From positions 28,246 to 92,245 of the forward strand of contig CAVUKB010000007.1 in the NCBI GenBank assembly GCA_963741955.1: 64,000 bases of DNA, given 5' to 3'. Position numbers and translations under genes: made by a program. The DNA comes from an uncultured Acidobacteriota bacterium (GTDB lineage: Bacteria > Acidobacteriota > Thermoanaerobaculia > Gp7-AA8). Positions within the stretch are counted from its first letter, which is position 1. Every line of letters begins with the position of its first letter. Positions 3,560 to 58,058 of the stretch are shown here, one piece after another. The notes beneath the pieces are model-generated. The model saw only the letters and a list, made by a program, of their open reading frames with translations, was not told the DNA's origin and searched no databases.

Positions 3560-4420
3560 ATCATGGATCCGCACCGCTCGGGAACCTTGCAGGTTGAGGG
3601 GTGCGGATCCTCCGATCCGCGGCGAGAATCGCGTTCGAGCGCAATGAGACGGCGCTGTCGGCTGAGGCGAAGCCGCTCTCGCGAGACTCGCGCACTCCAC
3701 CGACGCTGCGCGCAACGCGACAGTCTCCGTCTTCCTCGGCTTCGACACGATCGTCGCCACTCGGGACCCCCGCAGATTGAGGGGTGCAGATCCTCCGATC
3801 TGCCGCGGACGTGGTGTTCGAGCGCAATGAGACGGCGCTGTCGGCTGAGGCGAAGCCGCTCTCGCGAGACTCGCGCATTCCACCGACGCTGCGCGCAACG
3901 GGACAGTCTCCGTCTTCCTCGGCTTCGACATGATCGTCGCCACTCGGGACCCCCGCAGATTGAGGGGTGCAGATCCTCCGATCTGCCGCGGACGTGGTGT
4001 TCGAGCGCAATGAGACGGCGCTGTCGGCTGAGGCGAAGCCGCTCTCGCGAGACTCGCGCATTCCACCGACGCTGCGCGCAACGGGACAGTCTCCGTCTTC
4101 CTCGGCTTCGACATGATCGTCGCCACTCGGGACCCCCGCAGATTGAGGGGTGCAGATCCTCCGATCTGCCGCGGACGTGGTGTTCGAGCGCAATGAGACG
4201 GCGCTGTCGGCTGAGGCGAAGCCGCTCTCGCGAGACTCGCGCATTCCACCGACGCTGCGCGCAACGGGACAGTCTCCGTCTTCCTCGGCTTCGACATGAT
4301 CGTCGCGGCGGATCAGAGGATCCGCACCCCCTCGGGGTCCCTGCAGGTTGACCCCCGAATTCCACCGACGCTGCGCGCAACGCCGCGGTCTCCGTCTTCC
4401 TCGGCTCCCCTCGCGCGGAG
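3560..4420. repeat. Intergenic tandem repeat array: 183-bp unit, about 4.6 copies. Each unit contains short hairpins, and the array is bracketed by a ggatccgcacc...ggtgcggatcc palindrome.
   Basis: Units start at about 3593, 3776, 3959 and 4142, exactly 183 bp apart, plus a partial diverged fifth copy. Copies are near-identical. ORFs through the array on both strands give repeating Arg-rich peptides and are unlikely to be coding. Confidence 0.85.
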
Positions 4421-9998: not shown

Positions 9999-10159
9999 GG
10001 AGTCTGCGCGGTAGAAACTGTCCTACTGCGAAAACGGATCAGCGGTCCAGATCCGTCCGGATTTTCGGCGAGTAGCCACCGCTACGCACCTCAAATTCGA
10101 ACGAAGTTGGCCTCGCTGCTCCGCCTTCTCGCGACGGACGTTCCTACCGTGCAGACTCC
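9999..10159 (+). mobile_element. MITE (A-type, about 161 bp) with 16-20-bp TIRs ggagtctgcgcggtagaaac / gtt(c/t)ctaccg(t/c)gcagactcc. Copy 1.
   Basis: Near-identical copies at 26272..26432 and 36393..36553. Its TIRs match the ends of the IS at 34798..36390. Confidence 0.8.
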
Positions 10160-15389: not shown

Positions 15390-15530
15390 ACTTTCCGAGG
15401 ATCGGAAAAGCATCGCGGATCGAGGATTGAGGATCGCGGATCTGAAAAGCATCGCGGATCGAGGATTGAGGATCGCGTATCTGAGGAGCATTGGGGATCG
15501 GGGATCGGGGATCGGGGGTTGGGGAAAGCC
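15390..15530. repeat. Short tandem repeat: about 39-bp unit GATCGCGGATCTGAAAAGCATCGCGGATCGAGGATTGAG at about 2.7 copies, followed by (GGGGATCG)x3
   Basis: Seen directly after the stop of the 12164..15379 gene, in a convergent intergenic region. Confidence 0.7.
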
Positions 15531-19022: not shown

Positions 19023-19235
19023 CCGTCACGCGCTCCCAGCGCCGTATATGTGTTGAAAGAAACCTGTGCCGGCGGGAACACTCTCAATGTAATGCCGCAC
19101 CGGCAGAGTTTGCTGCACGAATAAAAATGTCCGCTCATTCTCCACCTCAGCGGGGCGGACTGCAAGATCCCCTAACTTTGGTTGAGGTCCTTTCGTTGCA
19201 GTATGTTGGGACGGGCGGATCCGTTTCGACGACCC

Positions 19236-19318
19236 TTCCCGGTAGGAACGTCCGGAGCGAGAAAGCGGAGCAGCGAGGCCAGATTCGTTCGGATTTGGGC
19301 CGCTGATCCGCTTTCGAG
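19236..19318 (-). mobile_element. Internally deleted remnant of the A-type MITE, reverse orientation, abutting the fdhD stop
   Basis: ggtaggaacgtccggagcgagaaagcggagcagcgaggccagattcgttcggatttg...gatccgctttcg matches the reverse complement of the MITE with about 45 bp of the centre missing. Confidence 0.55.
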
Positions 19319-20182
19319 CTAGCGCAGCCGCTCGGCTCCGGCGTAGACATTGAAGCGGCGATTCCGGACGAACCCGAGGAGCGTCATCCCTGCCTCGCGC
19401 GCCAGATCGACCGCGAGGGAGGAAGGCGCTCCGACCGCGGCGAGGAGGGGGATACCTGCGACCGCAGCCTTCTGGACGAGCTCGAAGCTCGCCCGGCCGC
19501 TGACCATCAGCACCGAGCTTGCGAGCGGAACGCGCCCGGCGAGAAATTCGCGGCCGATCACCTTGTCCAGAGCGTTGTGCCGGCCCACGTCTTCGCGGAG
19601 AGCTCTGAGCTCTCCCTCCCGCGAGAAGAGCCCCGATGCGTGCAGGCCGCCGGTCACGTCGAACGTCTCCTGTCGGCCGCGTAGCTCTTCTTCGAGCCGA
19701 TGGATGGTCGCCGAGTCGATCGAAAACGCCGAGGCGGACGAACGCACATACGGGATCCGAACCGCTTCGATCGAAGTCTTTCCGCAGATGCCGCAGCTCG
19801 AGGCGGTGTAGAAGTGACGCTCGAGTCGCGCGAGATCGGGGCTGATCGAGGAAGAGAGCGTCACCCGGACGATATTGGATCCGCCGTGGGGCTGCTGCGG
19901 CCCGCATGCGGCGATCTCTGCGATCTCGCCACGCTCCCGCACGATTCCTTCGGTGAAGAGAAAACCTGCCGCGAGCTCGTCGTCCTCCCCGGGAGTGCGC
20001 ATGGTGATGGAGATGGTCTGGCGCTGCGGCGCCCCTCCGTCCATCCATTCGAGCCGGATCTCCAGAGGCTCCTCGATGGCGACGGCGTCTTCGCGATTCG
20101 CGATCCGTTCGTCCGAGCAGAGCCCGATGCGATCGAGACGGAAACTCGAGATCGACGATCCGTCCGGCGGCGATAGAGACAT
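19319..20182 (-). CDS. fdhD: Formate dehydrogenase accessory sulfurtransferase FdhD
   Basis: SCGICGK motif and GGLHA...RHNALDK. About 287 aa from the ATG at 20182 with a GGAGGG RBS. The longer track ORF (507 aa) is an upstream extension. Confidence 0.85.
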   Translation of the reverse strand: MSLSPPDGSSISSFRLDRIGLCSDERIANREDAVAIEEPLEIRLEWMDGGAPQRQTISITMRTPGEDDELAAGFLFTEGIVRERGEIAEIAACGPQQPHGGSNIVRVTLSSSISPDLARLERHFYTASSCGICGKTSIEAVRIPYVRSSASAFSIDSATIHRLEEELRGRQETFDVTGGLHASGLFSREGELRALREDVGRHNALDKVIGREFLAGRVPLASSVLMVSGRASFELVQKAAVAGIPLLAAVGAPSSLAVDLAREAGMTLLGFVRNRRFNVYAGAERLR

Positions 20183-26090: not shown

Positions 26091-26269
26091 GCCCGCATTT
26101 CTCACACCGTCTCGTCGCGAGGAGGCGGAGAGTGGCTTGGATGCAAGGCGCGCGCAGTTTCGGCGACGAAGGCATAGTGGTGACTATGTTGAGGAGCCGA
26201 AGCTGTGCGCAACGTGGCAGACAGGCCGCTATCCGTCTCCGCAGCAGAGACGATGTGAGAAATGCGGGC
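26091..26269 (+). mobile_element. B-type non-autonomous element (about 179 bp) with 16-bp TIRs gcccgcatttctcaca / tgtgagaaatgcgggc. Copy 1.
   Basis: Second copy at 34617..34795 (about 90% identical). Both are followed by TA and then an A-type TIR. Confidence 0.7.
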
Positions 26270-26271
26270 TA

Positions 26272-26432
26272 GGAGTCTGCGCGGTAGAAACTGTCCTACT
26301 GCGAAAGCGGATCAACGGTCCAAATCCGCCCGGATTTTCGGCGAGTAGCCACCGCTACGCACCTCAAATCCGAACGAATTTGGCCTCGTTGCTCCGCTTT
26401 CTCGCTACGGACGTTTCTATCGCGCAGACTCC
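26272..26432 (+). mobile_element. MITE A-type, copy 2
   Basis: About 95% identical to the copies at 9999 and 36393. Perfect TIRs. Confidence 0.8.
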
Positions 26433-33768: not shown

Positions 33769-34059
33769 GGGGCTCCCTGGACGATCCGGGCGACGACTCT
33801 GACACTCATTGCGGCCCGGCGATTCGACAATTCTGTAACGTTTCGTCGCACGGCCGTCTTCCTCTAACTGCCCCCCAGGTCGTGGCTGAAGTGTGACGAT
33901 CTCCCCATCCTTTCCTGACAGGACCGTGCGATTGTAAAAACGGAGTAATTCCACCCATTTGGGGGATGACGCCGGGGGAGCCGCGGGCCGATCATGAAGA
34001 TCCGGGATGAAACGGAAGCGGTGGGGAAGACACCCAGTCATGCAGGAGGCGGGACTCAA

Positions 34060-34617
34060 ATGGGTCGCTACATCCAGAAGGTATCGATCGGATCGAGGGA
34101 GACGTGGGTCGGCTGGATCCTCGACGGCATCGAAGGGGAGATCGACGGATTGACTCCGGCCGACGAGATGTCGGAAGAGGAGCTTGCCCTGAAAGGGGTC
34201 CGCGAGTTCCATCAGGCTCCGCGGGCCATGCTCGGTCAGGTCGAGAAGCGTCGTCGTCGCCGGATCCGGCTCTCGGCGCCCCTGCAGGCGAACGTCAATT
34301 CACGGACGGCGGAAGTGTGGGATCTGAGCTCGAGCGGAGTCGGGATCCAGCACCAGTTCAAGCTCAAACCCGCCACGGAGATCACGGTGGAGATCCAGGG
34401 CCCGGAAGGCCGGAGGTCACTCCGGTTCGAGGTGCTTCGCTGCGAGCTCTCCCGGAGTCTGAAGGCGACCGGAGAGATCCTCTACTACTCGGCGCTCAGA
34501 CTCGCGGATGGAGCGATGGACGCCGGCGAGTTTCTCCGGCGGTTGATGGACCGCAATGCGGACAACGCGTTCGGCCTCCCGGACGGGGCGGCGCGTTCAC
34601 GTCACGCATTCCTCTAG
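34060..34617 (+). CDS. PilZ domain protein (c-di-GMP receptor)
   Basis: RRRRRIR (RxxxR) and DLSSSGVGI (DxSxxG) motifs. AGGAGG RBS before the ATG at 34060. Confidence 0.6.
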   Translation: MGRYIQKVSIGSRETWVGWILDGIEGEIDGLTPADEMSEEELALKGVREFHQAPRAMLGQVEKRRRRRIRLSAPLQANVNSRTAEVWDLSSSGVGIQHQFKLKPATEITVEIQGPEGRRSLRFEVLRCELSRSLKATGEILYYSALRLADGAMDAGEFLRRLMDRNADNAFGLPDGAARSRHAFL

Positions 34618-34795
34618 CCCGCATTTCTCACACCGTCTCGTCGCGAGGAGGCGGAGAGTGACTTGGATGCAAGGCGCGCCCGGCTTCGGCGACGAAGGCA
34701 TAGTGGTGACTATGTCGAGGAGCCGAAGCGGGGCGCAACGCAGCAGACACACCGCTATCCGTCTCCGCAGCAGAGATGGTGTGAGAAATGCGGGC
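34617..34795 (+). mobile_element. B-type element, copy 2, directly 5' of the IS
   Basis: Same TIRs as 26091..26269. The junction reads gcgggc-TA-ggagtctgcgcggtag. Confidence 0.7.
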
Positions 34796-34797
34796 TA

Positions 34798-36390
34798 GGA
34801 GTCTGCGCGGTAGGACGAAACTTCGGCGCTTCCTGAAGATCTCGGAAGACGTCCACTCGCGAGCGGCACAACCGCGGCACCGAAGCGCCTTCAGGTTGAT
34901 GGTGCCGTTCTCGGGGAGTTGGCAGCGCGAAACACTTGTTCGGCGGGACTTTTCGGGGGTTGGATACTGCTCTGCCGCGGCTATTCGAGCGCAACCAGAG
35001 CGCTCATTCGCTTTAGATTGATCACCAGGCACACCAGAGCCCATTCGCCGGCAACTTTGCGCATCCCGCGGAGACTGAATCGTCGAAAGCCGAGAACGTT
35101 TTTGACCCAGCCAAACACCGGTTCAACGATTGCCTTTCGCCGGCGATAGACCGCCTTGCCTGGAGGTGAGTCCAACTTCTGCTTCATCCGCAGAGTCGCG
35201 GGGAGCGTCGTCTCAGCTGCGGCTTCTTTACCTTCTCGTCCGAGAGAAACATAGGCATCGATCTTCTTCTGCTCCAACTCGATGAACGAGGTTTCCGATC
35301 TGTAGCCGGCGTCTGCAACAACCTGGTCGGGAGTTGTTTCGCAATTCTGTTCGACCACCTCGACCAAAGGCAGGAGTGATCCGCTGTCCGCCGCAGATTG
35401 TGTGATCTCGAATCCAACGATGAGTTGGTTATAGGCATCAACTGCGATCTGCGCGTTGTAGCACTGCTGAAATCCTTCCTGGGACTTCATGATTCGGCTC
35501 TCGGAATCGGTGAAGTTTTCTTGCGCTTTGTCATCAGGTACGCCGAACTTCCGTTTGAATGGCTTACCCTTCTTCCTGGCCGGATCATCGTCGCCTTCGG
35601 AGCGACCATCCTTCGTGTCCTGTTCCCGCTGCCGTTGTTCGAGTCGCTCTCGTGCCTCTTTGATTTTTTGGATACGAGTCTCCCGGCGCTGGAGCTCTTC
35701 GGGCAACTCATCCCCGCGTCGATCAACTCCGTACTCGGCATCCTCCCGGGCATCCTCCTCCGCCGCGGTGGCCAAAATGTCCGCGATCTCCTTCTCGAGT
35801 TTTGCTTGTTCCTTCTTCATCCGATCGTAGCTCATCGCCTTGTGCTTGCTGGCATTCGCTCGGACCTTCGACCCGTCGATTGCAATCCTCCCGAGCGTAA
35901 CTAACCCTGTTTCCTGGGCGGTCCGAATGATCTGGACCAGTAAGGAGCTGAACGCGTCCACATGCTCGAGCCGAAAGTCGCAGATGGTTCGATGCGACGG
36001 AAAGTTCCCGGCCGCAAGATACCGGACGGCGACATCTTCATCGATCCGCCGGGCAATCTTGCGCGAGGAGAACGTTCCCGTCAGGTACGAATAGATGATC
36101 AACTTGAGCATCATCCTTGGCTCGTACGGCTGCTTCCGTCTCCCGTCGCCTTTGTACGGCTCGTAGAATGCACTCAGATCGAGCTGATCGACGATGTCGA
36201 AAACGAAGTGCGCCAAGTGACCCTCAGGGAGCCAGTCATATGGCGAGGGCGGAAGCAGCAGCGACTGCTCCGGTCGGTATGGCCTATACGTGGTCGGCAT
36301 GACCCAATCTTACCATATTATTGTTATTACTAATCATACCCTTTTATCATGTTCCTTTGCCGTGCACCGGTTTTCTACCGCGCAGACTCC
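34798..36390 (-). mobile_element. Complete IS element, IS1182-like (IS5 superfamily), about 1.6 kb, with TIRs ggagtctgcgcggtag shared by the A-type MITEs
   Basis: Left end ggagtctgcgcggtaggacgaaac. Right end gttttctaccgcgcagactcc. One DDE transposase ORF inside. Confidence 0.75.
34981..36300 (-). CDS. IS1182/IS5-superfamily DDE transposase
   Basis: N-terminal DUF772-like MMLKLIIYSYLTGTFSSRKIARRI. DGSKVRANAS. Coiled-coil insert. C-terminal VEPVFGWVKNVLGFRRFSLRGMRKVAGEWALVCLVINLKRM. Confidence 0.8.
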   Translation of the reverse strand: MPTTYRPYRPEQSLLLPPSPYDWLPEGHLAHFVFDIVDQLDLSAFYEPYKGDGRRKQPYEPRMMLKLIIYSYLTGTFSSRKIARRIDEDVAVRYLAAGNFPSHRTICDFRLEHVDAFSSLLVQIIRTAQETGLVTLGRIAIDGSKVRANASKHKAMSYDRMKKEQAKLEKEIADILATAAEEDAREDAEYGVDRRGDELPEELQRRETRIQKIKEARERLEQRQREQDTKDGRSEGDDDPARKKGKPFKRKFGVPDDKAQENFTDSESRIMKSQEGFQQCYNAQIAVDAYNQLIVGFEITQSAADSGSLLPLVEVVEQNCETTPDQVVADAGYRSETSFIELEQKKIDAYVSLGREGKEAAAETTLPATLRMKQKLDSPPGKAVYRRRKAIVEPVFGWVKNVLGFRRFSLRGMRKVAGEWALVCLVINLKRMSALVALE

Positions 36391-36392
36391 TA

Positions 36393-36553
36393 GGAGTCTG
36401 CGCGGTAGAAACTGTCCTACTGCGAAAGCGGATCAACGGTCCAAATCCGCCCGGATTTTCGGCGAGTAGCCACCGCTACGCACCTCAAATCCGAACGAAT
36501 TTGTCCTCGTTGCTCCGCTTTCTCGCTACGGACGTTTCTACCGCGCAGACTCC
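36393..36553 (+). mobile_element. MITE A-type, copy 3, separated from the IS right end only by TA
   Basis: Junction gactcc-TA-ggagtc forms a palindrome. Confidence 0.8.
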
Positions 36554-36657
36554 TAGCGGCGAGGAGGGATTCCGCGACGTGATTCGTCCCTCCCGGCGGA
36601 GTCGCTGAACCTTCGTCTCCCTCTTCTCTTCGGATCTCATGCGATAATCGCCCGGTT

Positions 36658-38166
36658 TTGCATCCGATCGATCTCGTCATCATTTTTCTCTACGTCGCGG
36701 GCGTCCTGATCGCCGGGGCCTGGTTCGGCCGCCGCCAGCGCTCCACGGCTCACTATTTCTTCGCCACTCAGCACGTCCCCTGGTGGGCGGTCGGCGCGTC
36801 GATCGTCGCCACCGAGACATCGACCATCAGCTTCATCTCCGTCCCGGGGATCGCATACGCACGCGGGGGAAACTTCACCTTTCTCCAACTCGTCTTCGGA
36901 TATCTCGTGGGACGGGTGATCATCTCCTTCCTCTTCATCCCCTCTTACTTCAAAGGAAAGCTGACCACCGTCTACGAGCTTCTCCACGGACGCTTCGGAC
37001 AGGCGGTGACCTCCCTCTCCGCCGCGCTCTTCGTGATCATGCGATCGATCGCGGATGGGGTGCGGCTCCTCCTCACCGCGATCGTCCTCGCCGGGGTATA
37101 CCGGACCTTCGTTCCCTCGGCAAACATGACCTCGGCGTTGACCGGTTCGATCCTCGCGCTCGGCGTGGTCATGGTGGTTCTCTTCTATCTCGGCGGGATG
37201 GAAGCGATCATCTGGGTCGAGTTCGTGCAGCTGTTCATCTACATCGGAGGGGCGATCGCTGCGGGCGTCGTGCTCGTGCATGGAATCCCGGGAGGGCTCG
37301 GAGCGGCACTCGACATCGGCCACCAGTACGGGAAGTTCCAGCTCCTCGACTTCTCGGCCAGCCTGACGCGCTCTTTCACGTTCTGGGCAGGAGTGATCGG
37401 CGGATGCTTTCTCACCATGAGCACGCACGGAACCGATCAGTTCATGGTTCAGCGCTATCTCTCGACCGCCGGCCCGCGCCCTGCAGCCGCAGGGCTGCTG
37501 ACTTCGGCGGTGGTGGTGCTCGTCCAGTTCATCGGATTTCTCTTCCTCGGGGTGCTTCTGTTCGCGTGGTACGCGCCGTACAAGCTCGCGACGTGGGCCA
37601 CCGGCAGTCCGGCTGCACCCTTCATCTCACCGGACCAGGTCTTCCCCAACTTCATCACCCATCACCTGCCGACCGGCCTGTCGGGACTGGTGGTCGCTGC
37701 GATTCTGGCGGCAGCCATGTCGTCGTCGATCAACTCCATCGCGGCGACGGCGATGTCGGACCTCTACCGCCCGATCTTCCGGGGACGGAGCGACCGGCAC
37801 TACCTGAACGTCTCGAAGGTTCTGACCATCGTCGCCGGAATCGTGCAGATCGGCGTTGCGCTCGGAATGGCCGGCATGACTCGCTCGGCACTCGACACCG
37901 CCCTTTCGGTCGCGTCGCTGATCAACGGCCCGGTACTCGGAGTCTTCCTCCTCGGCGCAGCGAAACGGGGCCGGACCACGGCGGCACTGAGCGGAATGAC
38001 GGCCGGCATCATCGCCGTCGCGGTGGTCTGGCTCGGCACGCCGCTCGCGTGGCCCTGGTACACCGTGGTGGGGTCCGTCACCACGTTCGCGGTCGGGCTT
38101 TTCGTGTCGCTCGTGAAGGGAGAGACGGCGAGCGAGATTGCGCTCGGGACCGGCGAGGCGGAGTAG
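36658..38166 (+). CDS. Sodium:solute symporter family (SSS) transporter
   Basis: About 13 TM helices. N-terminal HPIDLVIIFLYVAGVLIAGAWFGRR and WWAVGASIVATETSTISFISVPG typical of SSF. Confidence 0.8.
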   Translation: MHPIDLVIIFLYVAGVLIAGAWFGRRQRSTAHYFFATQHVPWWAVGASIVATETSTISFISVPGIAYARGGNFTFLQLVFGYLVGRVIISFLFIPSYFKGKLTTVYELLHGRFGQAVTSLSAALFVIMRSIADGVRLLLTAIVLAGVYRTFVPSANMTSALTGSILALGVVMVVLFYLGGMEAIIWVEFVQLFIYIGGAIAAGVVLVHGIPGGLGAALDIGHQYGKFQLLDFSASLTRSFTFWAGVIGGCFLTMSTHGTDQFMVQRYLSTAGPRPAAAGLLTSAVVVLVQFIGFLFLGVLLFAWYAPYKLATWATGSPAAPFISPDQVFPNFITHHLPTGLSGLVVAAILAAAMSSSINSIAATAMSDLYRPIFRGRSDRHYLNVSKVLTIVAGIVQIGVALGMAGMTRSALDTALSVASLINGPVLGVFLLGAAKRGRTTAALSGMTAGIIAVAVVWLGTPLAWPWYTVVGSVTTFAVGLFVSLVKGETASEIALGTGEAE

Positions 38167-44918: not shown

Positions 44919-45121
44919 CGAAAGACCTCCTGATTGGACTCGGCCGCCATTGTAGACCTCAGGACTTCTGCTGCGGAGCGCGATCCGGGCCTCTCTGCGG
45001 GGTCAGACGACGATGTTGCTCCTCAAGGTAGTGCAGCGATGACGCCTCGTCGCAAGATCGCCATCTTCCTTGCATCCATCCCCCTTTGCGGGATCGCACT
45101 CCTCGCGACGAAATCCCGTGA

Positions 45122-45679
45122 ATGATCCGGGCTAGAATGCGGAACAGCAACACGATCGAACGGTCCTCGCCCGTGAAACAGATCTCAGACTGCACAGGGA
45201 TTCTCGACTGGATCCCCTCGAGCGCGCTTCGTCGCGACAGCGTCCTGCGTCACGCAGACGACGTTTATGCGGAGCTTCAGTGGAAGCGCTCCTTCGGTGC
45301 GATCGCGGAGGCGGAGACTTTCGAAGCGAAGTGGTCGCTGAAGCTGGAGGGATTTCTCTTCCGGCAGTGGGTCACGATCCGGAAGCCCGGCGAGTCGATG
45401 CCGGTGGCGATGTTCCAGGCCTCTCCCAGCTTCAACGGCACACTCGAGTTTCCCGACGGACATCGCTACCACTGGGACTCGAACTTCTGGCTCACCCGGT
45501 GGATCTGGAGCGATACACGCGGAATGGAGCTGATCCGCATGCAGCGCCATCTCTCGCTCCGGACCGAAGGGTGCGTCGAAGTGGTGTCCGACGAGAGTAT
45601 CGGCAACCCGGACCTCCCGCTCCTCACGGTCCTCGGGTGGTACCTGATCGTTCTGGTGACGGACCTCAGACCAGGATGA
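45122..45679 (+). CDS. Hypothetical protein
   Basis: Coding-like codon usage. C-terminal hydrophobic helix. No family recognised. Confidence 0.4.
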   Translation: MIRARMRNSNTIERSSPVKQISDCTGILDWIPSSALRRDSVLRHADDVYAELQWKRSFGAIAEAETFEAKWSLKLEGFLFRQWVTIRKPGESMPVAMFQASPSFNGTLEFPDGHRYHWDSNFWLTRWIWSDTRGMELIRMQRHLSLRTEGCVEVVSDESIGNPDLPLLTVLGWYLIVLVTDLRPG

Positions 45680-51431: not shown

Positions 51432-51572
51432 CGCTTCGGGATTCTAGCCCGGATTTCCGATCCGCCTGGTCGCACCGAAGCGAGGAGTTCGAAAGCCCTT
51501 CAGGCGGAGGAGTGGACCAGTGAGGCGGCTCTCGTCGGACGCCGCGCACGACCGCGTTCGAGAAGTGTCGGG

Positions 51573-56325: not shown

Positions 56326-56460
56326 TCAGAGCCTGCGGGGCAGAAAACGTCCTGCTGAGACAGCGGATCAGCGGTCCGGATCGCTCCGGAACTCCGGCGC
56401 GCACCCGGCCGCGCTGCTCCTCTTTCTCGCAACGGGATTTCTGGCGTGCAGGATCCTGCA
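56326..56460 (+). mobile_element. Degenerate A-type MITE-like sequence upstream of, and overlapping, the 5' end of the 56488 gene
   Basis: gcctgcggggcagaaaacgtcctgctgagacagcggatcagcggtcc... is about 70% similar to the MITE consensus. Confidence 0.4.
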
Positions 56461-57995: not shown

Positions 57996-58032
57996 GAATG
58001 TCGTCCGGTGCCGGGAGTCTGCGCAGTAGGAT
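57996..58032. repeat. Minimal solo-TIR element: A-type left and right TIRs back-to-back (ggagtctgcgcagtag-gatg-gtttctaccgcgcag)
   Basis: Seen directly. Preceded by another TIR-like fragment (ggtttctacccgat at about 57912) and a low-GC hairpin island. Confidence 0.55.
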
Positions 58033-58058
58033 GGTTTCTACCGCGCAGCCTTCAGTAG

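What the first reader, a model, noticed from the sequence alone, without database searches (positions are those of the whole stretch)
34617..36553. Complete IS1182-like element whose terminal inverted repeats are identical to those of a 161-bp MITE family present in at least three intact copies
The IS (34798..36390) begins ggagtctgcgcggtag and ends ctaccgcgcagactcc. The 161-bp elements at 9999, 26272 and 36393 carry the same termini around a non-coding core. This is the classic parent-IS/MITE relationship, so the MITEs are probably mobilised in trans by this transposase. One MITE copy sits directly against the IS right end, separated only by TA, which produces a CC-TA-GG palindrome and suggests preferential insertion at TA next to existing element ends.
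Basis: seen in the sequence. Interest (0 to 1): 0.6.

Follow-up and report, generated by a model that had tools for sequence, protein, structure and literature searches.

The report
ISKpn6-like insertion sequence with hairpin MITEs
An intact ISKpn6-type jumping gene sits between two miniature non-coding transposons, one of which carries exactly its end sequences; this is an ordinary kind of mobile DNA, though that mini-element proves to be an old hairpin-shaped family shared by two bacterial phyla.

Summary
Window 34798-36390 is an intact 1593-bp IS1182-family insertion sequence (IS) with perfect 16-bp terminal inverted repeats (TIRs). Its 439-aa transposase is 50% identical to that of ISKpn6, which has the same ends and CTA/TAG flanks. 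Three 161-bp elements (9999, 26272, 36393) carry the same TIRs. There is also a diverged copy, a remnant and a 40-bp mini-copy.

- 34618-34794 is a second 177-bp MITE family with IS1380-like ends. It also abuts the MITE1 copy at 26272.
- The insertion target is C-TA-G. CTAG occurs only 9 times in 64 kb, and 7 of those lie at edges of these elements. Each insertion recreates CTAG on both sides, which explains the back-to-back array.
- MITE1 shares only 16-19 bp with the IS, so it is not a deletion derivative. It is a whole-length hairpin found in Acidobacteriota and Gammaproteobacteria. Compensatory substitutions preserve the hairpin between lineages, whereas dispersed copies decay.

Flank duplications, many genomic contexts and near-identical copies within genomes show MITE1 is mobile DNA, not an RNA gene. 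No empty site was found. Verdict: a new member of a known kind, of moderate interest.

The parts
34614..34617 (.). CTAG at the left edge of the array. Its TAG is the stop codon of ORF 33994-34617. It is the presumed original target, one of four CTAGs that tile the array (34614, 34795, 36390, 36553).
34618..34794 (.). MITE2 copy, 177 bp, with perfect 17-bp TIR CCCGCATTTCTCACACC. It is a whole-length hairpin with IS1380-like ends and CTAG on both sides.
   Evidence: D4; -120.5 kcal/mol, z -13.2. The ends resemble IS1380-family ends in L111 and L157.
34798..36390 (-). Intact ISKpn6-like IS1182-family insertion sequence, 1593 bp, flanked by TA on both sides (CTA...TAG).
   Evidence: A 100% identical second copy lies in another context (L108).
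34798..34813 (+). Terminal inverted repeat GGAGTCTGCGCGGTAG at the end distal to the transposase start.
36375..36390 (-). Terminal inverted repeat at the end proximal to the transposase start. It shares 19 bp with the MITE1 ends.
34981..36300 (-). Transposase gene, 439 aa, with DUF772 plus DDE_Tnp_1/DDE_Tnp_1_6 domains. It is 50.2% identical to the ISKpn6 transposase.
   Evidence: (376 bits, cutoff 270)
36391..36392 (.). TA shared between the IS right end and MITE1 copy C; centre of CCTAGG.
36393..36553 (+). MITE1 copy C, 161 bp, with perfect TIRs and TA/TA flanks. It is a whole-length hairpin.
   Evidence: RNA -94.3 kcal/mol, z -12; DNA -56.9 kcal/mol, z -11.2
26092..26268 (.). Second MITE2 copy (93% identical over the 198-nt repeat D4). 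It abuts MITE1 copy B through a shared CTAG.
   Evidence: (D4)
26272..26432 (+). MITE1 copy B, 98.8% identical to copy C, with TA/TA flanks. It ends 14 bp from the stop codon of a signal-peptidase gene (the intervening bases include its TA flank).
9999..10159 (+). MITE1 copy A, an older copy 92.5% identical to B and C, with decayed flanks CA/TC. It lies between a glutamate dehydrogenase gene and a PPDK_N gene.
56328..56456 (+). Diverged, shorter MITE1 relative. It is 77% identical over the left arm, and both TIRs are decayed.
   Evidence: D3; E 7.9e-11
19235..19318 (-). Decayed MITE1 remnant lacking the centre and the outer TIR bases. It ends at the CTAG at 19319.
58014..58053 (.). 40-bp element made of the two TIRs only (GGAGTCTGCGCAGTAGGA...GGTTTCTACCGCGCAGCCTTC). 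It is a central-deletion derivative of the IS or of a MITE. Similar 40- and 41-bp forms occur in other genomes.

Best explanation
The interval is a back-to-back array of three transposable elements, each separated by one CTAG: MITE2 (177 bp, IS1380-like ends), an intact ISKpn6-like IS1182-family insertion sequence, and MITE1 (161 bp).

Shown: the IS transposase clade carries the terminal sequence GGAG(T/C)CTGCGCGG(T/C)AG wherever I could see its ends. Elements with these ends lie between CTA and TAG. This fits insertion at C-TA-G with duplication of TA; a 4-bp CTAG duplication gives the same sequence and cannot be told apart.

Inferred: MITE1 has no coding capacity and the same 16-19-bp ends and flanks, so it is moved in trans by ISKpn6-type transposases present in the cell. 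These are the 100%-identical IS copies and/or the variant that is 93.5% identical in DNA (94% in protein).

Inferred: these elements start with G and end with C, so every insertion turns one CTAG into two. In a genome where CTAG is about 24-fold depleted, the elements supply most local targets. That produces arrays and repeated abutment with other CTAG-targeting elements.

Shown: MITE1 is not a deletion product of this IS. It is an independent hairpin-shaped lineage. Its stem is conserved by compensatory changes between lineages, but substitutions in individual inserted copies mostly break it. Inferred: the hairpin therefore matters for propagation rather than at each insertion site.
For: IS identity: NCBIfam IS1182 376 bits against a cutoff of 270; Pfam DUF772 plus DDE domains; 50.2% identity over 99% of the ISKpn6 transposase.

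Same TIR and CTA/TAG flanks in relatives:
- ISKpn6 next to blaKPC-3 (L156).
- A Halomonas plasmid IS, 57.5% identical (L157).
- A Marinobacter plasmid IS (L158).
- The variant in the same genome, 94% identical in protein (L109), and the 61% relatives L110/L111.
- L074, L021 and L047.

Recent IS activity: a second 100% identical 1593-bp copy in a different context.

MITE1:
- TIR matches are far above chance.
- There are 66 full-length copies among 98 family hits in 107 loci plus the window.
- Flank consensus is C 105/123, T 90/123, A 96/123.
- Flanking dinucleotides are TA/TA in 24 of 63 copies. Seven more have identical non-TA pairs (TG x5, GA, AT), which indicates a true duplication.
- Within one genome copies are 97% identical on average, with 13 identical pairs.
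- 56 of 63 copies lie outside long ORFs.

CTAG:
- 9 sites in 64 kb, against 217 expected from composition and 41 from a Markov model.
- 6 are at MITE1/MITE2/IS edges and 1 is at the remnant.
- CTAG is 5-13-fold depleted in the other host genomes.

Abutment recurs in the window (twice), L108, L110/L111, L157, and about 12 of 62 MITE1 copies.

Hairpin and covariation:
- z -12 as RNA and -11 as DNA.
- 93% of cells paired, against 77.7% in shuffles.
- 24 pairs with changes on both sides, against 15.7.
- 53 further pair types, against 40.8.
- All 0/500 shuffles; slid controls give 29-47% paired.

Within genomes, 37 of 57 substitutions in stem columns break the pair.
Against: No empty or polymorphic site was found, so movement is inferred and not observed. 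I could not scan whole genomes for the IS. Whether every genome with MITE1 also has an ISKpn6-like transposase is unknown; co-occurrence is shown only within the window's genome, and otherwise only at genus level (Marinobacter, different strains) and phylum level. MITE1 shares only 16-19 bp with the IS, so recognition by this transposase is assumed from TIR identity. The covarying stem and the conserved asymmetric apex (CACTATGCNCCTCAAA) have no role in a minimal model where only the TIRs matter. Substitutions within a genome are about 3-fold rarer per column in stems than in unpaired columns. That could mean some constraint on inserted copies, although substructure among subfamilies can produce the same effect.
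Confidence: 0.8

Rival explanations
1. MITE1 is mobile, but its hairpin is functionally required. One possibility is that a single-stranded fold-back presents the ends to the transposase. Another is that the transcribed hairpin acts on neighbouring mRNAs and helps copies persist. On this view MITE1 is more than a passive carrier of TIRs.
For: Compensatory changes run along the whole stem, as far as about 65 nt from the ends, well beyond the 16-19 bp the IS ends share with each other. Length is conserved at 160-163 bp across phyla and the apex is conserved. Stem columns change about 3-fold less often than unpaired columns within genomes. There are weak concordant strand signals: 55 A-C against 28 G-U mismatches, and 25 antisense against 14 sense placements downstream of gene 3' ends.
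Against: Most within-genome stem changes break pairs (37 of 57). Shorter central-deletion forms of 31-85 bp persist. A 160-bp element in a Myxococcales MAG has the same TIR and pairs only over its terminal ~20 nt, with a branched rather than hairpin interior. The strand signals are not significant and are not corrected for shared ancestry. Template-switch correction of quasi-palindromes could make arms symmetric without selection (established knowledge, not tested here).
Confidence: 0.12
2. The 161-bp repeats are genes for a structured non-coding RNA, or a host-maintained repeat such as REP/BIME, and merely resemble the IS ends. They are not transposed by a DDE transposase.
For: Strong covariation and a very stable fold. 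Mostly intergenic location, often just after stop codons.
Against: No Rfam family matches at gathering score. Relaxed hits are only generic plant and animal miRNA hairpin models far below threshold. Copies occur in dozens per genome in unrelated contexts, with 2-bp flank duplications that include non-TA pairs. Termini are identical to those of ISKpn6-type IS over 16-19 bp in many taxa. There is no excess of G-U over A-C on the model strand and no significant orientation bias. REP elements are 20-40 bp and make no target duplication (established knowledge).
Confidence: 0.04
3. The adjacency of MITE2, the IS and MITE1 is one composite unit, or an assembly artefact at repeats, rather than three independent insertions.
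For: The junction GAGAAATGCGGGC-TA-GGAGTCTGCGCGGTAG occurs twice in the window and once in L108. Short-read assemblies of the same strain break at these repeats.
Against: The partner next to the MITE2-type end differs: the distal IS end at 34798, a MITE1 at 26272, and the proximal IS end in L108. The IS in L108 lacks MITE1 at its other end. Each element has its own complete TIR pair and CTAG flanks. Independent assemblies agree at 100% where they overlap the window, including across copy A, but none of them spans the array itself.
Confidence: 0.04

Closest known systems
ISKpn6 (IS1182 family; the IS downstream of blaKPC in Tn4401)
   Same: The transposase has the same length (439 aa) and is 50.2% identical over 99% of it. 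The ends are nearly the same: GGAGCCTGCGCGGCAG...CTGCCGCGCAGACTCC in ISKpn6, GGAGTCTGCGCGGTAG...CTACCGCGCAGACTCC here. The flanks are the same, CTA and TAG. Size is similar, 1540 against 1593 bp.
   Different: Only 50% protein identity. The host is a Thermoanaerobaculia (Acidobacteriota) MAG rather than Enterobacteriaceae plasmids. I know of no MITE reported for ISKpn6 (own knowledge). A search of the held papers for the terminal sequence returned only a KPC primer overlapping the ISKpn6 end.
ISMac2-associated MITEs of Methanosarcina acetivorans (IS1182 family; PMC3852290)
   Same: These are MITEs attributed to an IS1182-family partner. They are 160 and 169 bp long, with 26- and 25-bp inverted repeats. 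One family has 4-bp direct repeats and the other has none. Copy numbers are 14 and 7. The length class and relationship are the same as here.
   Different: They are archaeal and I did not compare their sequences. No hairpin covariation or cross-phylum spread is mentioned in the passage I read.
IS5 and other CTAG (YTAR)-targeting IS5-family elements
   Same: The DDE transposase is distantly related (weak IS5 NCBIfam hits). The 16-bp TIR begins GGA. The target is centred on CTAG (IS5 properties from own knowledge).
   Different: The family assignment is IS1182, not IS5: IS5 models score 30-59 bits against cutoffs of 110-275.
Correia/NEMIS elements of Neisseria, RUP of Streptococcus pneumoniae, and ERIC of enterobacteria
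   Same: These are bacterial MITEs of about 100-160 bp with TIRs. Correia and RUP have a TA target duplication. They are intergenic and fold into long hairpins when transcribed (own knowledge).
   Different: The sequences and the associated transposase families are unrelated. MITE1 has an identified candidate transposase in the same genome and spans two phyla.
Stowaway MITEs and Tc1/mariner transposases in plants
   Same: The MITE shares only the TIRs and the target duplication with the autonomous element and is cross-mobilised rather than derived by deletion (own knowledge).
   Different: Eukaryotic, with an unrelated transposase superfamily.

Membership tests
IS1182 family (ISKpn6-like clade) | Transposase matches the curated IS1182 family model above its cutoff | tested here: met
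   NF033551 scores 376.4 bits against a cutoff of 270; the best IS5 model scores 59 against 140.
IS1182 family (ISKpn6-like clade) | Domain make-up: N-terminal DUF772 plus C-terminal DDE_Tnp_1/DDE_Tnp_1_6 | tested here: met
   PF05598, PF01609 and PF13751 all score above gathering.
IS1182 family (ISKpn6-like clade) | Single full-length transposase ORF bounded by terminal inverted repeats, total length about 1.3-1.95 kb | tested here: met
   1593 bp, a 439-aa ORF like its relatives of 439-445 aa, and a perfect 16-bp TIR.
IS1182 family (ISKpn6-like clade) | Clade-specific ends GGAGYCTGCGCGGYAG with CTA/TAG flanks | tested here: met
   Seen in ISKpn6, the Halomonas and Marinobacter plasmid IS, L109, L110 and L111 at both ends, and at the single visible end of L074, L021 and L047.
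IS1182 family (ISKpn6-like clade) | Catalytic DDE residues intact and transposition active | not tested
   Residues were not mapped. Activity is only suggested by a 100% identical second copy.
MITE (non-autonomous bacterial transposon) | Short, with no coding capacity, and bounded by TIRs | tested here: met
   161 bp. The ends match each other over 20 bp.
MITE (non-autonomous bacterial transposon) | Target-site duplication | tested here: met
   TA/TA in 24 of 63 copies plus 7 identical non-TA pairs. Flank consensus is C-T-A.
MITE (non-autonomous bacterial transposon) | Many copies in unrelated genomic contexts, with homogeneous subfamilies within each genome | tested here: met
   66 full-length copies in the loci and window. 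Mean identity within one genome is 97%.
MITE (non-autonomous bacterial transposon) | TIRs match those of an autonomous element in the same genome | tested here: met
   16 of 16 bp with one IS end and 19 of 19 bp with the other.
MITE (non-autonomous bacterial transposon) | Insertion polymorphism or an empty site | tested here: inconclusive
   No empty site was found among the loci, the same-strain assemblies or the metagenome relatives.
MITE derived from the resident IS by internal deletion | Subterminal sequence beyond the TIR matches the parent IS | tested here: not met
   Similarity stops after 16-19 bp. There was no blastn match between the IS interior and MITE1-bearing loci. Only the 40-bp element at 58014 is compatible with such an origin.
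Structured non-coding RNA gene | Match to a curated RNA family | tested here: not met
   Nothing at gathering score. Only spurious miRNA hairpin models appear at relaxed thresholds.
Structured non-coding RNA gene | Base pairs supported by compensatory substitutions | tested here: met
   24 of 39 pairs have changes on both sides. All five measures exceed all 500 shuffles.
Structured non-coding RNA gene | Strand-specific signal (G-U tolerated on the sense strand, consistent orientation to genes) | tested here: not met
   28 G-U against 55 A-C mismatches, and 14 sense against 25 antisense placements with crude gene calls.
IS1380-family-derived MITE (for MITE2) | Ends resemble those of IS1380-family elements, with 4-bp CTAG flanks | tested here: inconclusive
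   MITE2 ends in CCCGCATTTCT. This compares with CCCGGATTTCT at the start of the region holding the annotated IS1380-family gene in L157, and CCCGGATTATG before the DDE_Tnp_1_4 gene in L111. No IS1380-type transposase was seen in the window.

The most novel reading that the evidence does not exclude
MITE1 may be an ancient element, spread across phyla, whose 80-bp-arm hairpin and conserved apex are needed for its own propagation. For example, it might be mobilised as a folded single strand or a cruciform. In that case ISKpn6-type transposases, including the one next to blaKPC, would have a previously unrecognised structured substrate.
Probability: 0.15. Interest if true: 0.6.

Novelty: new member of a known kind. 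Interest (0 to 1): 0.35.

Why it matters
The result links an uncultured Thermoanaerobaculia genome to the ISKpn6 clade, known clinically from the blaKPC transposon Tn4401. It shows that this clade keeps one terminal sequence and one target (C-TA-G) down to about 50% protein identity.

It gives a simple, testable reason why such elements pile up end to end. Each insertion regenerates a tetranucleotide that the host genome otherwise lacks.

It also documents a MITE family shared by Acidobacteriota and Gammaproteobacteria. The family's hairpin is kept by compensatory change between lineages while individual copies decay. This is a usable natural data set for asking whether MITE secondary structure matters for mobilisation.

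For genome annotation, these 161-bp and 177-bp repeats break short-read assemblies of this organism. Without annotation they could be mistaken for RNA genes.

Tried and rejected
1. Empty-site searches, all negative:
- Virtual empty sites built from the flanks of every full-length copy, searched against all loci, gave no spanning match.
- Exact-protein look-ups of genes flanking copies A and B returned only 100% identical contigs of the same strain, from GCA_049580305.1 and Logan SRR27973573, with the MITE present or the contig broken inside it.
- The single metagenome scan, using the symporter downstream of the array, returned relatives at no more than 66% identity, with no conserved upstream gene and no MITE1.

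2. Rfam at gathering score found nothing. At relaxed E-value it found only generic miRNA-precursor hairpin models.

3. Plasmid collection searches with the window MITE1 and with a Marinobacter copy found no match.

4. Looking for MITE1 arms inside any IS end: no similarity beyond 16-20 bp. Derivation by deletion is rejected for the 161-bp family.

5. The IS1182-like gene in L041 (39% identity) has no recognisable GGAGTC end. It is a different family member and not a local parent.

6. A REP/RAYT-type origin was considered because of the 31-33-bp mini hairpins. I rejected it because of the flank duplications and the termini identical to a DDE-type IS.

7. Telling a 2-bp TA duplication from a 4-bp CTAG duplication is not possible from sequence, because both give the same string.

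8. Literature searches for the terminal sequence gave only KPC primers that overlap the ISKpn6 end.
Full report
**1. What is in the interval**

The IS runs from 34798 to 36390 (1593 bp). It begins GGAGTCTGCGCGGTAG and ends with the exact reverse complement. Allowing 3 mismatches, this 16-mer occurs 12 times in the window against 1.1 expected; none of 100 shuffles reached 12.

The only long ORF inside the IS is 34981-36300 on the minus strand (439 aa). It scores 376 bits on the NCBIfam IS1182 model (cutoff 270). It carries the DUF772 plus DDE_Tnp_1/DDE_Tnp_1_6 domains.

The three 161-bp elements at 9999, 26272 and 36393 align without gaps. B and C are 98.8% identical; A is 92.5% identical to each. 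Copy C is separated from the IS by TA only.

**2.

- The first 180 bp of the interval are a different element. MITE2 lies at 34618-34794 (177 bp) with a perfect 17-bp TIR, CCCGCATTTCTCACACC, and CTAG on both sides.
- A second MITE2 copy at 26092-26268 abuts MITE1 copy B in the same way.
- MITE1 also has a diverged 129-bp copy at 56328-56456 and a remnant at about 19235-19318.
- A 40-bp element at 58014-58053 consists only of the two ends.
- Both MITEs fold as whole-length hairpins. MITE1 gives -94 kcal/mol as RNA (z -12) and -57 kcal/mol as DNA (z -11). MITE2 gives -120 kcal/mol (z -13).

**3. Source and copies of the IS**

- The exact transposase is named by NCBI as an IS1182 family transposase of a Thermoanaerobaculia MAG.
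- Contigs of GCA_049580305.1 and of Logan run SRR27973573 are 100% identical to the window where they overlap. They break inside the repeats.
- A second copy of the 1593-bp IS, 100% identical, lies in another context (L108). It is flanked by TA/TA and again abuts a GTGAGAAATGCGGGC end.
- A variant 94% identical in protein and 93.5% in DNA is in the same assembly (L109) with near-identical ends.

**4. The IS belongs to the ISKpn6 clade**

In the plasmid collection the transposase is 50.2% identical over 99% of its length to the ISKpn6 transposase. ISKpn6 next to blaKPC-3 reads cta-GGAGCCTGCGCGGCAG...CTGCCGCGCAGACTCC-tag and is 1540 bp long.

The same ends and flanks occur in these relatives:
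- a Halomonas plasmid IS, 57.5% identical;
- a Marinobacter plasmid IS;
- the 61% relatives L110 and L111;
- L074 (52%), L021, and a Pseudomonadales contig whose end is followed by MPTRYRP.

The terminal sequence and the CTA/TAG flanks are therefore clade characters, not a coincidence of this window.

A literature string search for the end sequence returned only KPC primers that overlap the ISKpn6 end. MITEs attributed to an IS1182-family partner have been described before: the ISMac2 MITEs of Methanosarcina acetivorans, 160 and 169 bp long (PMC3852290).

**5. MITE1 outside the window**

An nhmmer profile found 98 non-overlapping family members in these loci plus the window. Of these, 66 are full length, nearly all 160-163 bp.

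The hosts are:
- several Acidobacteriota MAGs, with at least 20 full-length copies in OZ253580.1 and 12 in OZ241897.1 within this truncated sample;
- Gammaproteobacteria, including the isolates Tamilnaduibacter salinus and two Marinobacter, plus Granulosicoccaceae and Woeseiaceae MAGs;
- one Dehalococcoidia MAG.

Window copies are 75-78% identical over their full length to the other acidobacterial subfamilies. Within one genome copies average 97% identity, with 13 identical pairs. This is the pattern of amplification from a master copy in each lineage.

**6. Target and duplication**

The three bases outside each end are C (105/123), T (90/123) and A (96/123). The flanking dinucleotides are TA/TA in 24 of 63 copies. 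Seven further copies have identical non-TA pairs (TG five times, GA, AT). This indicates a real duplication rather than TA being part of the element. Most remaining combinations differ from TA/TA by a single base.

Several flanks are palindromes centred on the insertion (L104, L099, L067). A 2-bp TA duplication with G...C termini and a 4-bp CTAG duplication give the same sequence, so I cannot separate them.

**7. Why the elements sit back to back**

CTAG occurs 9 times in the 64-kb window. Base composition predicts 217 and a Markov model predicts 41. CTAG is the second most depleted tetranucleotide.

- Six of the nine sites are edges of MITE1, MITE2 or the IS.
- One is the edge of the remnant at 19319.
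- The other two (45132, 51444) sit against GCCCGGAT... sequences that look like further IS1380-type ends.
- CTAG is 5-13-fold depleted in the other host genomes sampled. About 20-35% of the CTAGs in those blocks are MITE1 edges, although the blocks were selected for containing the element.

These elements begin with G and end with C, so each insertion converts one CTAG into two. The array at 34614-36556 is tiled by exactly four CTAGs.

Abutment recurs elsewhere:
- MITE2-type ends next to MITE1 in L095, L042, L057, L029 and L058;
- another end type (GGAGGCTGTCCGAGAAT) next to MITE1 in four OZ253580.1 copies;
- IS1380-family genes next to the IS relatives in L111 and L157.

The stop codon TAG of ORF 33994-34617 supplies the leftmost CTAG of the array.

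**8. Is MITE1 a derivative of this IS?**

No. The IS ends share 16 bp with each other. MITE1 shares 16 bp with one IS end and 19 bp with the other, and nothing recognisable beyond that. No IS end seen in any genome extends the similarity.

The relationship is shared ends and shared target, as with Stowaway and mariner. It is not parent and deletion product. Only the 40-bp element at 58014 could be a deletion product of the IS; its left 18 bp read GTAGGA as in the IS.

Short symmetric forms of 31-85 bp occur in several genomes. They fit central deletions of a palindrome.

**9. The covariation question**

Covariation is present. On a 36-sequence alignment, RNAalifold predicts 39 pairs, 24 of them with changes on both sides. 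Counting on that structure gives the following:

| Measure | Observed | Shuffled mean |
|---|---|---|
| Cells paired | 93.0% | 77.7% |
| Pairs with changes on both sides | 24 | 15.7 |
| Further pair types | 53 | 40.8 |

All measures exceed all 500 shuffles. Sliding the partner by 1-3 columns gives 29-47% paired.

The rest of the criterion is not met:
- Copies are multi-copy, bounded by TIRs, flanked by duplications and located in unrelated places.
- A-C mismatches (55) outnumber G-U (28) on the model strand.
- Placement downstream of gene 3' ends is 25 antisense against 14 sense, using crude gene calls.
- No Rfam family fits.
- The ISKpn6-type IS occurs in both phyla and in Marinobacter, though on a plasmid of a different strain from those with MITE1.

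Within genomes, 37 of 57 substitutions in stem columns break the pair. Inserted copies therefore mostly decay, while differences between lineages are compensated. The simplest reading is that the hairpin matters for the copies that propagate, or that quasi-palindrome correction makes the arms symmetric. Which of these holds is open.

Two observations remain unexplained. Stem columns change about 3-fold less often than unpaired columns. The asymmetric apex CACTATGCNCCTCAAA is conserved across phyla.

A 160-bp element in a Myxococcales MAG has the same TIR but an unrelated, branched interior. A full hairpin is thus not obligatory for elements carrying these ends.

**10. What could not be shown**

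No empty site was found by any route. Movement and the identity of the mobilising transposase are therefore inferences from anatomy.

**11. Verdict**

The finding is real. Its core reading is right: an IS1182-family IS plus MITEs with the same ends, with insertion beside existing ends. It needs three corrections:
- the MITE is an independent, widespread hairpin lineage and not a derivative of this IS;
- the target is C-TA-G in a CTAG-poor genome;
- the array includes a second, IS1380-type MITE.

This is a new member of a known kind. Interest is moderate, mainly for the ISKpn6 link, the self-regenerating target and the covarying hairpin.

Noticed in passing
window 26092-26268 and 34618-34794: A second MITE family (177 bp, 17-bp TIR CCCGCATTTCTCACACC, CTAG flanks, hairpin -120 kcal/mol). 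In both copies it abuts a GGAGTC-type end. Its ends resemble those of IS1380-family elements that abut ISKpn6-like IS in L111 and on a Halomonas plasmid (L157).
   Followed up: partly
window, whole 64 kb: CTAG occurs only 9 times, against 217 expected from composition and 41 from a Markov model. TTAA, TTAG and CTAA are similarly depleted. 7 of the 9 CTAGs are edges of the elements described here.
   Followed up: yes
window 45117-45135 and 51444-51465: The two remaining CTAGs sit against lone GCCCGGAT... sequences (cgtgaatgatccgggCTAG and CTAGcccggatttccgatcc). These look like solitary IS1380-type ends. No partner end was sought.
   Followed up: no
L018 4278, L060 1422, L073 2647, L101 2702: Hairpins of 31-33 bp, GGAGTCTGCGCGGTAGAA..GCGCAGACTCC, mostly flanked by CTA/TAG. 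They occur in Vicinamibacterales, Tamilnaduibacter and Marinobacter. They are recurrent extreme central deletions of the element, or small mobile forms.
   Followed up: partly
L053 6210-6369 (Myxococcales MAG): A 160-bp element with the same TIR and CTA flanks on both sides, but an unrelated interior that does not form a hairpin. It is a separate MITE family of the same length using the same ends. The ISMac2 MITEs are also about 160 bp.
   Followed up: partly
L017 7263-7423 (OZ253580.1) and L094 7831-7990 (OZ241897.1): MITE1 copies in two different species-level genomes share a right flank that is 85% identical. This is either an insertion older than the split or a reused target.
   Followed up: no
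L042, L012, L017, L041 (OZ253580.1), right flank of MITE1: Four MITE1 copies abut the same further end type, TA-GGAGGCTGTCCGAGAAT. This is presumably a third CTAG-targeting repeat family.
   Followed up: no
window 36294-36350, + strand: Two sigma-70-like hexamer pairs in the AT-rich IS end nearest the transposase start. They point outward toward MITE1 copy C and the symporter gene at 36658. They are consensus matches only.
   Followed up: no
L021 6828-6860: Immediately before the IS end there is a partial duplicate of the terminus (cacTAGGAGTCGCTAGGAGTCTGCGCGG).
   Followed up: no
window 3566-4414 and 15396-15512: Tandem repeats unrelated to the finding: four copies of a 183-bp period (93% identical), and three copies of a 39-bp unit.
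   Followed up: no
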